From: Escherichia phage ECML-10
Direction: 5' to 3' (one strand)
Sequence record: OL631479.1
DNA: 64,000 bases
Shown: positions 35,384 to 38,750 of the stretch, in pieces
How positions within the stretch are numbered: position 1 is the stretch's first letter
Layout: each line of letters starts with the position of its first letter
The notes under the pieces: generated by a model
The model's database searches: none
The model's input: the letters and a program-made list of their open reading frames with translations, nothing else
What the model was told of the DNA's origin: nothing
Translations under genes and position numbers: made by a program

Positions 35384-35665
35384 ATGAAAAAGATTTGCGA
35401 TACAGATGTGGAGTTCAAGGTGTGTAGTAAGGAGACCTATTGGGAAGTGAGACAAAAGGTATATTTGTTTGGACTTATCCCATATTGGTCCAAATTCTAC
35501 TGGGGAGCAGATGAATTAGGGAGATATGCCACCAAAGCTATGGCGCTTATAGGTATAGCTGAATATATTGCTGCTAGGGACAGGGCTGGAAAAACCTGCT
35601 ACTACACTGCTGACGAGATTCGTAACAGTGTTTACGTCCCCCAACCACCTGAAGGAGACCGTTGA
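35384..35665 (+). CDS. hypothetical protein
   Basis: Start moved to ATG 35384 (track start overlapped upstream gene). Confidence 0.45.
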   Translation: MKKICDTDVEFKVCSKETYWEVRQKVYLFGLIPYWSKFYWGADELGRYATKAMALIGIAEYIAARDRAGKTCYYTADEIRNSVYVPQPPEGDR

Positions 35666-35889
35666 TGAAAGTTAAAGTTTTAGATTCAAGCTTCTATATT
35701 GGTCAGGAGCCTTTAGTGGGTAAAGTGTTTACCGCTGTCCATAACGAAGATTATCCTGACCTTTTAAAAATAAAGGGTGCAGATCTTATTGCCGCTGGTG
35801 CATCTCAGGAATGCTTTGACAGTCAGTGGACCTACAACTTTGCCCTAGGTGAGGATGTAGAGATAGTGGAGGACGATCATGAAGGTTAA
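35665..35889 (+). CDS. small acidic protein, MK(V/I)K family member
   Basis: MKVKVLDSSFYIGQ start; C-terminal EDVEIVEDDHEG. Confidence 0.5.
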   Translation: MKVKVLDSSFYIGQEPLVGKVFTAVHNEDYPDLLKIKGADLIAAGASQECFDSQWTYNFALGEDVEIVEDDHEG

Positions 35890-36133
35890 AATTCTTGATT
35901 CTAACGTCTACTTGGGGCAATCCTTCCTGAAAGGAAAGGTCGTACCTGCGGTATACTTTGAAGGGTTGCCGTGGGATGATCCTGTGCGGCAACATCACAG
36001 TTATGTAGGCCACAACGTGGTGTTTATCTTGGGATCAGACCTGATCACCGCTGGTGCACCTGAATATTATTTCGGGGAAGAGTCCTATTATGCCTTTGGG
36101 GTAGGGTCAGATGCAGATATTGTAGAGCTGTGA
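35879..36133 (+). CDS. small acidic protein, MK(V/I)K family member
   Basis: MKVKILDSNVYLGQ start, very similar to preceding gene; C-terminal GSDADIVEL. Confidence 0.5.
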   Translation: MKVKILDSNVYLGQSFLKGKVVPAVYFEGLPWDDPVRQHHSYVGHNVVFILGSDLITAGAPEYYFGEESYYAFGVGSDADIVEL

Positions 36134-36145
36134 TGGGTAACCGTT

Positions 36146-36544
36146 GTGAAAAATAAACTGTTCAAAGTTACAATGAAAATTCGCGGAGCTTGGAGCGTAA
36201 AGCAAGGGCGTATCCCAGAATTTGAGAAAGATTTCTACGTAGTCTCCACCTCGGAGGAGGCTGCATGCTGGCAGGCTGGCTATGCCTATGCAAGAACCTG
36301 GTACGAAGGATACCAGACTGGGGGCTATGACGGAGAAATTGTCAGCAAGGGTGTAGAAGAAATTAATGTGTTGACAAGTGAAAAAGTTTTTGTTATAGTG
36401 CATCCAGATTCCAGAGTGAAGCATTACTGGAATGCCAGAACAAAAACTTGGACACCGTTTGCAGACTCTGCTACACCACTTTTAAACCAAAAAGCTCTTG
36501 ACTCTGCCCCGAGCTATGGGGTTGTTGAAGAAAAGCTAAACTGA
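36146..36544 (+). CDS. hypothetical protein, paralog of 38355..38750
   Basis: Shares HP.S...YW....WTP motif block with 38355..38750. Confidence 0.5.
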   Translation: MKNKLFKVTMKIRGAWSVKQGRIPEFEKDFYVVSTSEEAACWQAGYAYARTWYEGYQTGGYDGEIVSKGVEEINVLTSEKVFVIVHPDSRVKHYWNARTKTWTPFADSATPLLNQKALDSAPSYGVVEEKLN

Positions 36545-36852: not shown

Positions 36853-36934
36853 AAACTGTTGACACAACGCTTCAGATTTAGTATCATTGTTTTCAAAGAG
36901 GGTTTGGTTCCCTCTTCTTTAAAAGGAACACGTT

Positions 36935-37252
36935 ATGCAAATTGAAATCACTGGCAACGTAGAAATCACTGAAGGTATGGTGTCTTTCATTTCCCACAAA
37001 ATGTCTAAGCTGGAGCGTTTGCACCCCTCTGCCAACTATACACGTGTGAGTGTAAAAGTTGAAAATGATCACCAGGAAGTCATGGCGTTCATTTTTGACA
37101 CTTCCGGAAAAGAAGTTATTGCCAAAGCTAAAGGCAGTGACGCTTACGAGGCAACTGACCGTATGGTAGATGTTGCAGCACGTCAGTTGGCTAAATGCGG
37201 TGGAAAGAAAGGTAAAGGGAAGGGCAAAGTAAAGATTGACTTTGGAGAATGA
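36935..37252 (+). CDS. hpf: ribosome hibernation promoting factor (HPF/RaiA/YfiA family)
   Basis: MQIEITGNVEITEG, KLERL, VSVKVEN and GKEVIAKAKGSDAYEATDRMVDVAARQLAK align with E. coli HPF/YfiA (from memory). Confidence 0.7.
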   Translation: MQIEITGNVEITEGMVSFISHKMSKLERLHPSANYTRVSVKVENDHQEVMAFIFDTSGKEVIAKAKGSDAYEATDRMVDVAARQLAKCGGKKGKGKGKVKIDFGE

Positions 37253-37389
37253 GGTGCTACAATGGGCGTGATTAAGAAATTAGTACCAAATGTAGAGATT
37301 GCATGCTTTGAAATTATGTTTGCAATCGCAGTTGTAGTTAATGTGTTAGGTTACGGCTATTAATATCAAATAATTGAGGAGACCTCTAA

Positions 37390-37754: not shown

Positions 37755-38018
37755 ATGATTGTTTATTTTAAAACTTCAGGTGGATACCCTGATTCTCAAA
37801 GCTTGATCGGAAAAACGTGCACAGCATACTCACCTCTTGATGAGGAGGTAAGCGATATTCTACGAGATATGTATCGGATTGATCCCCAAGAAGCTTTTGA
37901 TCAAAACCTTGTATTTGTCAAGGGCTCAGACATGAAGTCTTTGGGAGCATTCCCTGAAGCAGATGATGATGCCGTTTATTCGTTCATGACTCCTTTTGAA
38001 GCTATGGTTGTTGGGTGA
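37755..38018 (+). CDS. small acidic protein
   Basis: ORF track; SD AGAGGTGA. Confidence 0.5.
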   Translation: MIVYFKTSGGYPDSQSLIGKTCTAYSPLDEEVSDILRDMYRIDPQEAFDQNLVFVKGSDMKSLGAFPEADDDAVYSFMTPFEAMVVG

Positions 38019-38022
38019 GAAT

Positions 38023-38355
38023 ATGAAAGTACGATTTATTGGTGAAACAATTCCTGTGCATCTCCGGTCGCCTGAAGATTCTGCAGATCTTGCATCTCAG
38101 AAGGCGAGAGGTTATGATAAGAAAGTAATCTCAAACGATGTAGAACTTGAGGCTACTAGTTTACCTGACCCTGCTGCATTCTTTAATCATTATGGATACT
38201 ATTTCAGCAATCTGATGAATATCGGTGAGCTTGTGTTTATTAGTGGTGGAGAAATTGTTAGCAAGCTTGGCGGCGATCCGGATGTCTTTCATGAAACCTG
38301 TCCTTTTGCATTTGTGGTAGGTTCAGATGTGGAAGTTATTGAGGAGGTGCGGTAA
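38023..38355 (+). CDS. small acidic protein, MK(V/I)K family member
   Basis: Start moved to ATG 38023 (MKVRFIG); C-terminal GSDVEVIEEV. Confidence 0.5.
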   Translation: MKVRFIGETIPVHLRSPEDSADLASQKARGYDKKVISNDVELEATSLPDPAAFFNHYGYYFSNLMNIGELVFISGGEIVSKLGGDPDVFHETCPFAFVVGSDVEVIEEVR

Positions 38356-38750
38356 TGGTAAGACTATACCGTGTTGAGTATAGCTCAGATACTGTATACA
38401 ACGTAAGAAGCAAAGATCGCAGCGACAGAGTGCAAGAAATGTATGTTCTTGCCGACAGTCCGCTATCTGCAGCGTTCAAGGCAGGGGCTCTTGCATCTCG
38501 TTGGAAATTTGAAGGTGGATCTTTCTATGAAGAAACCCTTGAAGATTCTGTTGTTATTTCTTCTGTAGAGGTTTCAGATGACTACGAAGGGAAAAAGTTC
38601 GTAATGCGGCACCCACACAGCAACATTGCGTACTACTGGGATGTTCTGAACAACGAGTGGACCCCAGATCTTCAGAAGGCTACTGTGCTAACACCGTTTT
38701 TGGCAGATAAGTTTCCACCAGAAGGTAATTTATCCGCACTGTTTCAGTAA
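38355..38750 (+). CDS. hypothetical protein, paralog of 36146..36544
   Basis: FVMRHPHSNIAYYWDVLNNEWTP matches VFVIVHPDSRVKHYWNARTKTWTP. Confidence 0.5.
   Translation: MVRLYRVEYSSDTVYNVRSKDRSDRVQEMYVLADSPLSAAFKAGALASRWKFEGGSFYEETLEDSVVISSVEVSDDYEGKKFVMRHPHSNIAYYWDVLNNEWTPDLQKATVLTPFLADKFPPEGNLSALFQ

What the first reader, a model, noticed from the sequence alone, without database searches (positions are those of the whole stretch)
36935..37252. Phage-encoded ribosome hibernation promoting factor (HPF/RaiA) homolog
The 105-aa product aligns along its length with E. coli HPF/YfiA as I recall it (MQIEITGNVEITEG vs MQLNITGNNVEITEA; KLERL; VSVKVEN; GKEVIAKAKGSDAYEATDRMVDVAARQLAK vs GGEIHASAEGQDMYAAIDGLIDKLARQLTK). 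It also carries a Lys/Gly-rich C-terminal extension (GGKKGKGKGKVKIDFGE). A phage copy could shut down or protect host ribosomes during infection.
Basis: partly seen in the sequence, partly recalled or inferred. Interest (0 to 1): 0.7.

Follow-up and report, generated by a model that had tools for sequence, protein, structure and literature searches.

The report
Known rV5 phage HPF homolog
The ORF is a real but divergent homolog of the bacterial ribosome hibernation promoting factor, carried by rV5-like E. coli phages; it has been annotated since 2008 and was published and tested in 2019, so it is real but not new, and its role in infection is still unknown.

Summary
Window 36935..37252 (+) encodes the quoted 105-aa protein. 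It passes the curated cut-offs of Pfam PF02482 and TIGR00741 (HPF/YfiA family). It is 42% identical to E. coli HPF and 25% identical to RaiA. [quoted passage not shown]

The window is a Vequintavirus (rV5-like coliphage). The gene is rV5 gp139/ORF144. Many GenBank records already annotate it as sigma-54 modulation factor, HPF or RaiA. Mizuno et al. 2019 (Nat Commun 10:752) described it and expressed it in E. coli. They found no change in 70S/100S profiles and no phage HPF in ribosomes washed with 0.5 M NH4Cl.

This analysis adds several points:
- The gene follows a near-consensus sigma-70 promoter whose -35 box is conserved in a divergent sister lineage.
- It is under strong purifying selection (pN/pS about 0.06).
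- It was found in all 118 rV5-like phage records in the collection that hold this region.
- It keeps the ribosome-contact residues R83, K87 and K91 but has lost K80 and K89.
- Its tail varies among isolates by indels and frameshifts.

The most likely mechanism is salt-sensitive occupation of the 30S decoding channel of vacant host ribosomes early in infection. That mechanism is inferred, not shown. Novelty: already known. Interest: low.

The parts
36859..36887 (+). Sigma-70-type promoter (TTGACA, 17 nt, TATCAT; 11 of 12 consensus positions). It corresponds to rV5 promoter P144.
   Evidence: Found by the promoter scan. It matches the 'Sigma70-type promoter; P144' feature annotated just upstream of rV5 ORF144. 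The extended -35 box AAACTGTTGACACA is invariant even in the divergent sister lineage L002, where synonymous sites of the gene are saturated. The motif AAACTGTTGACA, allowing 1 mismatch, occurs 8 times in the window against 0.8 expected.
36896..36916 (+). 7-bp stem-loop in the 5' leader (AAGAGGG, 7-nt loop, CCCTCTT), at or very near the predicted 5' end of the transcript.
   Evidence: Appears in the minimum-free-energy fold, but the z-score is only -0.57, so it is not statistically remarkable. It lies within a 26-nt leader insertion specific to the rV5 lineage. Its 5' arm is the GAGGG that sits at Shine-Dalgarno distance from the ATG in lineage L002. Any function, such as mRNA 5' stabilisation or insulation from upstream read-through, is inferred only.
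36924..36927 (+). Shine-Dalgarno AGGA, 7 nt before the ATG.
   Evidence: Read directly from the sequence.
36935..37252 (+). CDS of the 105-aa phage HPF homolog (equivalent to rV5 gp139/ORF144), stop codon included.
36935..37198 (+). HPF/S30AE core domain, residues 1-88 (beta1 2-7, alpha1 13-29, beta2 33-42, beta3 47-55, beta4 60-67, alpha2 70-90).
   Evidence: The Pfam match covers residues 3-88. The AlphaFold2 model has mean pLDDT 81 and about 84-93 across residues 1-80. Foldseek gives rmsd 1.1 A to E. coli HPF 6h4n_x and to V. cholerae HPF 4hei. Core pN/pS is about 0.06 among 8 Vequintavirus alleles.
37199..37249 (+). Lys/Gly-rich C-terminal tail, residues 89-105 (GGKKGKGKGKVKIDFGE), predicted disordered.
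   Evidence: pLDDT is below 50 for residues 90-105. The tail has no counterpart in E. coli HPF. It varies among isolates by KG-repeat indels, a frameshift (APECc02) and a truncation (Murica). The sister lineage has a different but also basic tail, YSKSKGIDKRTAKWDY. The C-terminal peptide VKIDFGE of the rV5 protein was detected by mass spectrometry when it was expressed in E. coli (PMC6375957).

Best explanation
This is the Vequintavirus (rV5-type) copy of a short, gammaproteobacterial-type ribosome hibernation promoting factor. The gene was captured from a bacterium before the rV5 lineage split from an uncultured sister lineage. It is now a divergent gene fixed in the phage and kept under strong purifying selection. 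It is transcribed by host RNA polymerase from a near-consensus sigma-70 promoter, within a block of small genes that looks like a phage early region. The most likely mechanism follows its cellular relatives. [quoted passage not shown] It would be held there by the basic face of helix alpha2 (R83, K87, K91) and helped by the flexible poly-lysine tail. Because K80 and K89 are lost, binding is probably weaker or more salt-sensitive than for host HPF. The likely net effect is that the vacant host ribosome pool is parked, and shielded from RNases, during takeover. What is shown: family membership, fold, promoter motif, selection and distribution. What is inferred: ribosome binding, the binding site, the timing of expression and the benefit to the phage.
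For: Family and fold:
- PF02482 scores 48.6 bits against a gathering score of 23.7.
- TIGR00741 scores 46.4 bits against a cut-off of 40.9.
- The protein is 42% identical to E. coli HPF.
- The AlphaFold2 model has the canonical topology and superposes on ribosome-bound E. coli HPF 6h4n_x at 1.1 A over 89 columns.

Ribosome-contact residues:
- Cryo-EM work lists K80, R83, K87 and K91 as the conserved basic track on alpha2 (bioRxiv 10.1101/2025.10.07.680626).
- R83, K87, K91, K23 and K26 (E. coli numbering) are retained in the phage protein, as are the fold hallmarks D69, Y71, D75 and D79.

Expression signals:
- The promoter is TTGACA-17-TATCAT and corresponds to rV5 P144.
- Its -35 box is invariant in the sister lineage.
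- The gene sits in a small-ORF block on the same strand.

Selection and distribution:
- Mean pS is 0.24 against pN 0.015 among 8 alleles, with 31 synonymous-only variable codons against 7 that change the amino acid.
- Against the sister lineage, pS is 0.86 (saturated) and pN is 0.26.
- The gene was found in all 118 phage records that hold the region, and at the syntenic position in the sister lineage.
- Its GC content (43.4%) equals that of the phage (42.6%).
Against: The only direct experiment is negative. rV5 HPF was expressed from pBAD24 in E. coli NM522 and harvested at OD600 of 1. It was detected in crude extract but not in 70S or 100S ribosomes pelleted through 0.5 M NH4Cl, and the 100S peak did not change (PMC6375957). 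The authors themselves list true loss of ribosome binding as one possible explanation.

Two residues of the basic alpha2 track are lost in both phage lineages. K80, which is K in 17 of 20 cellular relatives, is V or T. K89 is G or S. The beta3 face that contacts m2G966 is also changed: T53 to F or R, and D/E51 to M or S.

The Pfam score of 48.6 bits is about half the 81-100 bits of three cellular homologs scanned. No expression-timing data for this phage group turned up in the literature searches.
Confidence: 0.55

Rival explanations
1. Anti-hibernation competitor that behaves like RaiA. The phage protein would occupy the HPF/RaiA site, and its 15-17 residue basic tail would run toward the RMF pocket, as the RaiA tail does. 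That would exclude RMF and host HPF, prevent 100S dimers, and keep ribosomes as easily reactivated 70S. The phage could then translate in slow-growing or starving hosts, or in hosts pushed into hibernation by a defence response.
For: The tail beyond helix alpha2 is 15 residues. E. coli HPF has 5 and RaiA has 23. Published structures show the RaiA tail heading toward the RMF site, and that tail is thought to block RMF. Mizuno et al. proposed that viral HPF might compete with cellular homologs and prevent dimer formation. Weakened core contacts (V80, G89) would suit a readily reversible binder.
Against: The core is much closer to HPF than to RaiA: 55 against 18.6 bits on the NCBIfam equivalog models, and 42% against 25% identity. 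The tail shares no sequence with the RaiA tail. It is also poorly constrained: frameshifted in APECc02, truncated in Murica, and replaced in the sister lineage. Overexpression did not reduce the small 100S peak, although little RMF would be expected at that growth stage.
Confidence: 0.22
2. Neofunctionalised RNA-binding protein that no longer acts on the ribosome. The HPF fold, which resembles a double-stranded-RNA-binding domain, would have been retargeted to another RNA or protein, such as a phage or host transcript.
For: The published ribosome-association test was negative. K80 and K89 are lost and the beta3 surface is remodelled. The profile score is low for the family. The phage clade is isolated in sequence space: the nearest non-phage relative among 1.8 billion representatives reaches only E 3.8e-7 at 44% identity. 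Strong purifying selection shows that the protein does something. Weaker Foldseek hits include dsRBD proteins.
Against: R83, which contacts m4C1402, is kept, as are K87, K91, K23 and K26. The 0.5 M NH4Cl wash and the late-exponential harvest make the negative result inconclusive. No alternative target is suggested by any data here.
Confidence: 0.15
3. Sigma-54 modulation, as the historical name suggests. The protein would alter RpoN-dependent host transcription.
For: The only support is the legacy annotation 'sigma 54 modulation factor', carried by rV5 and many other records. From general knowledge, that name comes from the position of cellular hpf next to rpoN, which one search confirms for E. 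coli.
Against: Every solved structure matched is a ribosome-bound hibernation factor. Nothing in the phage locus relates to RpoN.
Confidence: 0.03
4. Functionless passenger gene, or a gene-calling artefact.
For: The published overexpression produced no phenotype.
Against: pN/pS is about 0.06. The gene was found in all 118 records holding the region and in a sister lineage whose synonymous sites are saturated. The gene has its own promoter and ribosome binding site. Peptides including the C-terminus were detected by mass spectrometry when the protein was expressed.
Confidence: 0.02

Closest known systems
rV5 gp139 / ORF144 (ABI79209, YP_002003641), the Vequintavirus 'HPF' described by Mizuno et al. 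2019, Nat Commun 10:752
   Same: It is the same gene. It is 98% identical in protein sequence, with two substitutions (T36A, T56N). The length, tail, upstream P144 promoter and neighbouring genes are all the same.
   Different: Only allelic differences. The window's closest genome is phage MiataMamis (99.2% DNA identity), where the gene is labelled 'hypothetical protein'.
E. coli short HPF (YhbH, b3203; PDB 2rql, 6h4n, 6h58, 6y69)
   Same: The fold and topology match at 1.1 A rmsd. Sequence identity is 42% over 88 residues. K23, K26, D69, Y71, D75, D79, R83, Q84, K87 and K91 are all retained, and there is no C-terminal dimerisation domain.
   Different: The phage protein scores 55 bits, below the 125-bit equivalog cut-off. 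It carries K80V and K89G, has a changed beta3 face (T53F, D51M, H55F), lacks one residue at N8 (an indel polymorphic among phage isolates) and has one extra residue in the beta3-beta4 loop. It also has a 10-aa longer Lys/Gly tail. It is driven by a phage sigma-70-type promoter rather than sitting in the rpoN operon. No stable ribosome association or 100S effect was seen in the one test.
E. coli RaiA (YfiA / protein Y, b2597; PDB 1n3g, 4v8i)
   Same: It has the same fold and a C-terminal extension beyond alpha2. RefSeq names the phage gene 'RaiA'.
   Different: Identity is only 25%. The score on the RaiA equivalog model is 18.6 bits against a 158-bit cut-off. The phage tail is basic and Gly-rich, whereas the RaiA tail ends in an acidic stretch (EEVEEE), and the two tails share no sequence.
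Other phage HPF-fold proteins: Cronobacter phage GAP32 K4F6Q6, Escherichia phage PBECO4 L7TII8, Xanthomonas phage XaC1, and PHROG 8990
   Same: They are phage-encoded members of the S30AE/HPF fold.
   Different: They share only 18-23% identity with this protein in structure-based alignment. All come from large phage genomes (XaC1 is 349 kb and GAP32 is 359 kb). This protein matches their PHROG 8990 only weakly (E 1.8e-6) and belongs to PHROG 12469. They are presumably separate acquisitions. Mizuno et al. place GAP32 apart from the rV5 group in their tree.

Membership tests
HPF/RaiA (S30AE) superfamily, PF02482 / TIGR00741 | Profile match above the curated cut-off across the whole domain | tested here: met
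   PF02482 scores 48.6 bits against a gathering score of 23.7, covering residues 3-88 and profile positions 1-83 of 88. TIGR00741 scores 46.4 against 40.9.
HPF/RaiA (S30AE) superfamily, PF02482 / TIGR00741 | [quoted passage not shown] | tested here: met
   The AlphaFold2 elements are E2-7, H13-29, E33-42, E47-55, E60-67 and H70-90, with pLDDT 81. The top 36 Foldseek PDB hits are all HPF/RaiA/pY, and rmsd to 6h4n_x and 4hei_A is 1.1 A.
HPF/RaiA (S30AE) superfamily, PF02482 / TIGR00741 | Conserved basic track on helix alpha2 that contacts 16S rRNA (K80, R83, K87, K91, plus K89) | tested here: inconclusive
   R83, K87 and K91 are kept. K80 is V (T in the sister lineage) and K89 is G (S in the sister lineage). 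K80 is Lys in 17 of 20 cellular relatives. The contact list comes from bioRxiv 10.1101/2025.10.07.680626.
HPF/RaiA (S30AE) superfamily, PF02482 / TIGR00741 | Binds the 30S decoding channel of vacant ribosomes and inhibits translation | not testable with these tools
   The published test was negative under a 0.5 M NH4Cl wash at late exponential phase (PMC6375957). Its authors regard it as inconclusive.
Enterobacterial short HPF equivalog (NF007780) | Score at or above the equivalog cut-off | tested here: not met
   55 bits against a cut-off of 125.
Enterobacterial short HPF equivalog (NF007780) | Converts RMF-induced 90S dimers to 100S | not testable with these tools
   The 100S peak did not change on overexpression. 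RMF levels in that experiment are unknown.
RaiA / YfiA equivalog (NF007654) | Score at or above the equivalog cut-off | tested here: not met
   18.6 bits against a cut-off of 158. Identity to E. coli RaiA is 25%.
RaiA / YfiA equivalog (NF007654) | C-terminal tail that reaches the RMF site and blocks 100S formation | tested here: inconclusive
   A disordered tail of 15-17 aa exists. It has no sequence similarity to the RaiA tail and varies among isolates. Whether it reaches or blocks the RMF site cannot be computed with these tools.
Long HPF (Firmicutes type, with PF16321 dimerisation domain) | C-terminal dimerisation domain Ribosom_S30AE_C | tested here: not met
   PF16321 gave no hit even at E up to 10, and the protein is only 105 aa. 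A genuine long HPF (P0026) does show the domain.

The most novel reading that the evidence does not exclude
The phage HPF may not be a simple copy of the host factor. It may be a retuned variant: a weakened core (K80V, K89G), aromatic residues on the beta3 face, and a poly-lysine tail. Such a protein could bind vacant ribosomes reversibly and in a way that excludes RMF. During infection it would then act as an anti-hibernation or ribosome-shielding factor. It would keep host ribosomes as intact, quickly reusable 70S, and might counter defences or stress responses that work through RMF/HPF-driven dormancy or rRNA cleavage.
Probability: 0.25. Interest if true: 0.55.

Novelty: already known. Interest (0 to 1): 0.2.

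Why it matters
Phage genes that act on the host translation apparatus are of real interest, and this is the main HPF homolog found in cultured phages here. A tblastn search with E. coli HPF matched 129 records in a 50,697-record phage collection, and nearly all of them (about 117) are rV5-like. However, the gene's existence, its family assignment and a first biochemical test are already in GenBank and in the literature. The scan therefore rediscovered a known feature. The open question is functional: does the protein bind ribosomes during infection, and what does the phage gain? The residue changes, tail variability, promoter conservation and selection strength reported here would help design that experiment. 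They do not make the finding new.

Tried and rejected
- Word-indexed homolog search. It returned only 5 near-identical or related phage proteins, so I used the exhaustive representative search instead.
- One hit in that search, P0009 (1160 aa, 9 matched stretches), looked like a multi-HPF-domain protein. It is a PPC-repeat protein and the hit is spurious.
- IMG/VR scan. It gave only 2 loci, both ordinary vequintavirus alleles.
I reran it without them.
- Leader hairpin 36896-36916. Its folding energy is no better than that of shuffled sequence (z -0.57) and it is absent from the sister lineage. I kept it only as a minor note.
- Rfam over the whole window found no family. There are no tRNA genes in the window.
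- Six literature searches looked for later functional work on phage HPF, Vequintavirus hibernation, rV5 early transcription or stationary-phase infection, and one for the legacy 'sigma 54 modulation' name with rV5. Beyond Mizuno 2019, the only relevant item was a 2020 coliphage survey that repeats the annotation, found earlier.
- Recent horizontal transfer or a compositional anomaly is rejected. Gene GC is 43.4% against 42.6% for the window, and the local GC profile is flat.
- Neighbouring genes gave no functional clue. All belong to PHROGs of unknown function.

Full report
**Observation**

An AGGA Shine-Dalgarno lies 7 nt upstream of the ATG. BLASTP gives 37/88 identities (42%), E 2e-17. The paralog RaiA (also called YfiA, b2597) is only 25% identical. 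The Lys/Gly-rich C-terminal extension (residues 89-105) is real and makes the protein 10 aa longer than E. coli HPF.

**Family and fold**

Sequence evidence:
- Pfam PF02482 (Ribosomal_S30AE) matches residues 3-88 at E 1.4e-12, with 48.6 bits against a gathering score of 23.7.
- NCBIfam TIGR00741 (HPF/YfiA family) scores 46.4 bits against a cut-off of 40.9.
- The narrow equivalog models are not reached: enterobacterial HPF NF007780 scores 55 against 125, and RaiA NF007654 scores 18.6 against 158.
- In the PDB sequence search, E. coli HPF (2rql, 6h4n) comes top at about 1e-11, and RaiA reaches only E 0.18.

Structural evidence:
- An AlphaFold2 model was built from 21 aligned sequences. It has mean pLDDT 81.4 and topology E2-7, H13-29, E33-42, E47-55, E60-67, H70-90.
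- Foldseek against the PDB returns only HPF/RaiA/pY proteins among its 36 significant hits. The rmsd is 1.1 A to ribosome-bound E. coli HPF 6h4n_x and to V. cholerae HPF 4hei.

**What genome this is, and whether the gene is known**

The 2.5 kb around the gene is 99.2% identical to Escherichia phage MiataMamis and about 97% identical to rV5. In all, 118 phage records match. tblastn finds the protein in 118 records: 117 rV5-like records at 94% identity or more, and one bacterial Salmonella contig at 39.8%. The 117 include 18 records labelled 'Campylobacter phage'.

The deposited annotations include 'sigma 54 modulation factor', 'hpf: ribosome hibernation promoting factor', 'ribosome hibernation factor' and 'ribosome-associated translation inhibitor RaiA'. 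In the rV5 reference the gene is gp139/ORF144, annotated with a 'Sigma70-type promoter; P144' just upstream.

Mizuno et al. 2019 (Nat Commun 10:752, PMC6375957) list rV5 HPF (ABI79209) and five related phage entries in their table of virus-encoded ribosomal proteins. They report that it clusters among gammaproteobacterial HPFs, and they tested it. The test ran as follows:
- The gene was expressed from pBAD24 in E. coli NM522, and cells were harvested at OD600 of 1.
- Ribosomes were pelleted through a 0.5 M NH4Cl sucrose cushion.
- Peptides of the protein, including the C-terminal VKIDFGE, were found in crude extract.
- None were found in the 70S/100S fractions, and the 100S peak was unchanged.

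The authors named three possible reasons: inadequate growth phase, real loss of ribosome binding, or dissociation in salt. They speculated that viral HPF might compete with the host factors to prevent dimerisation. A 2020 survey repeats the annotation for five new rV5 isolates (PMC6969025). Six further literature searches found no later functional work. A search for the legacy 'sigma 54 modulation' name together with rV5 found nothing. The finding is therefore already known.

**What this analysis adds**

*Context*
- The gene follows a near-consensus sigma-70 promoter at 36859-36887 (TTGACA, 17 nt, TATCAT; 11 of 12 positions).
- It sits in a block on the + strand that has no ORF of 150 aa or more between about 34 and 56.8 kb.
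- All its neighbours belong to PHROGs of unknown function.
- This layout resembles a phage early, host-takeover region. No transcript data were found, so early timing is inferred.

*Distribution and age*
- An exhaustive search of 1.8 billion representative proteins finds only one close relative, P0004 (64% identity). The next hit is at 44% identity and E 3.8e-7.
- P0004 lies at the syntenic position on uncultured contigs of 125-137 kb. These contigs are only patchily similar to rV5-like phages: about 73-80% identity over about 30% of the region.
- The extended -35 box AAACTGTTGACACA is invariant between the two lineages, even though synonymous sites of the gene are saturated (pS 0.86).
- The motif is enriched in the window, at 8 occurrences against 0.8 expected.
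- The capture therefore predates the split of the two lineages. Gene GC (43.4%) matches the phage (42.6%).

*Selection*
- Among 8 Vequintavirus alleles the core has mean pS 0.24 and pN 0.015, a ratio of about 0.06.
- There are 31 synonymous-only variable codons against 7 that change the amino acid.
- Against the sister lineage, pN is 0.23 in the core and 0.44 in the tail.

*Ribosome-contact residues*
- Recent cryo-EM work identifies a conserved basic track on alpha2 (K80, R83, K87, K91, plus K89). It also describes a beta3/beta4 patch (T53, H/V62) that contacts m2G966, and R83 that contacts m4C1402 (bioRxiv 10.1101/2025.10.07.680626).
- The phage protein keeps R83, K87, K91, K23 and K26, and the fold hallmarks D69, Y71, D75 and D79.
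- Both phage lineages have lost K80 (V or T; Lys in 17 of 20 cellular relatives) and K89 (G or S). They have also altered the beta3 face: T53 to F or R, and D/E51 to M or S.
- The Pfam score of 48.6 bits is about half the 81-100 bits of three cellular homologs scanned.

*Tail*
- The rV5-type tail is a KG repeat that varies by indels. YN3 is two residues shorter, and L009 has a Gly in place of the Val.
- It is frameshifted in APECc02 and truncated in Murica.
- The sister lineage has a different tail that is also basic.
- Basic character therefore seems to be what is retained, rather than exact sequence. Some of these variants could be sequencing errors in a purine-rich tract.

**Mechanism**

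The best-supported reading is a divergent but functional short-HPF-type factor that is fixed in the phage and transcribed by host RNA polymerase. By homology and retained contact residues, it would occupy the A/P-site channel of vacant 30S or 70S ribosomes, with the poly-lysine tail adding non-specific rRNA affinity. Loss of K80 and K89 suggests weaker, salt-labile binding. That would reconcile the retained fold and strong selection with the negative result after a 0.5 M NH4Cl wash.

The benefit to the phage is inferred, with two candidates. The first is parking and protecting ribosomes that become idle during host shut-off. Association with hibernation factors is reported to hinder rRNA cleavage (PMC7764885). 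The second is the rival model, in which the tail excludes RMF as the RaiA tail does and keeps ribosomes as reusable 70S. A third possibility is that ribosome binding has been lost and the fold retargeted. This cannot be excluded, given the negative experiment and the remodelled surface. The 'sigma-54 modulation' reading rests only on a legacy name. The 'junk gene' reading is contradicted by the selection data.

**Comparison and verdict**

The protein is a member of the HPF/RaiA (S30AE) family by profile and fold. It is closest to gammaproteobacterial short HPF. It is not an equivalog of E. coli HPF or RaiA by NCBIfam thresholds, and it is not a long HPF, because it has no PF16321 domain.

Other phage HPF-fold proteins (GAP32, PBECO4, XaC1) are only distantly related to it, and this protein matches their PHROG 8990 only weakly.

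The functional suggestion remains untested beyond one negative experiment. Novelty: already known. Interest: low (0.2). The residual interest is the unresolved biological role.

Noticed in passing
window 35662-36544 and 37755-38750: The small genes flanking HPF include paralogs. PHROG 7379 occurs twice (36146-36544 and 38355-38750). PHROG 5009 occurs two to three times (35662-35889, 35879-36133, and weakly 37755-38018). This indicates tandem duplicated modules of unknown function in the small-ORF block.
   Followed up: partly
window 37262-37363 (+): A 33-aa hydrophobic ORF (MGVIKKLVPNVEIACFEIMFAIAVVVNVLGYGY, PHROG 15151) starts 10 nt after the HPF stop, and its GAGGTG Shine-Dalgarno overlaps that stop. 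It is annotated in rV5 as gp140 and called a 'putative membrane protein' in some records. It is absent from the divergent sister lineage L002.
   Followed up: partly
window 36853-36864 and seven other sites (183, 1908, 5564, 44777, 45947, 54111, 56796): The extended -35 motif AAACTGTTGACA, allowing 1 mismatch, occurs 8 times against 0.8 expected by chance. This is consistent with a shared class of strong host-type promoters. I did not check which copies are intergenic.
   Followed up: no
window 36889-36934; L002 3960-4000: rV5-lineage phages carry a 26-nt insertion in the HPF leader. It folds the ancestral GAGGG, which sits at Shine-Dalgarno distance from the ATG in lineage L002, into a 7-bp hairpin, and a new AGGA takes over as the Shine-Dalgarno. 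The hairpin energy is not significant against shuffled sequence.
   Followed up: partly
GenBank MG065644-MG065684 (hits H7-H9, H11, H20-H24 and others): Eighteen unannotated records named 'Campylobacter phage', with host given as C. jejuni or Campylobacter, are 95-98% identical to E. coli rV5-like phages across this region. They are probably mislabelled or contaminant genomes.
   Followed up: no
GenBank OR062528, OR062525, OR062530, MT884008-MT884010; PHROG 12469: The same HPF gene is annotated as 'ATP-dependent protease La Type I' in several records and as 'hypothetical protein' in many others. The PHROG that contains it (12469) is labelled 'unknown function', although the protein passes the PF02482 threshold.
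   Followed up: no
L010 (APECc02), L011 (Murica), L012 (V18), L013 (YN3), L009: HPF alleles differ by indels in the KG-repeat tail, including one frameshift and one truncation. V18 and Murica also have an extra Asn (GNNVEIT), which restores the E. coli HPF spacing at position 8.
   Followed up: yes
window about 42000: The sign of the GC skew flips near 42 kb, and long ORFs switch from the + strand to the - strand (56.8-60.4 kb). This marks a divergent or convergent transcription boundary in the phage genome.
   Followed up: no
P0009 (representative-library hit, not in the window): A 1160-aa protein matched the phage HPF in 9 stretches (E 6e-6), but it is a PPC-domain repeat protein. The match is spurious and should not be taken for a multi-HPF protein.
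   Followed up: yes
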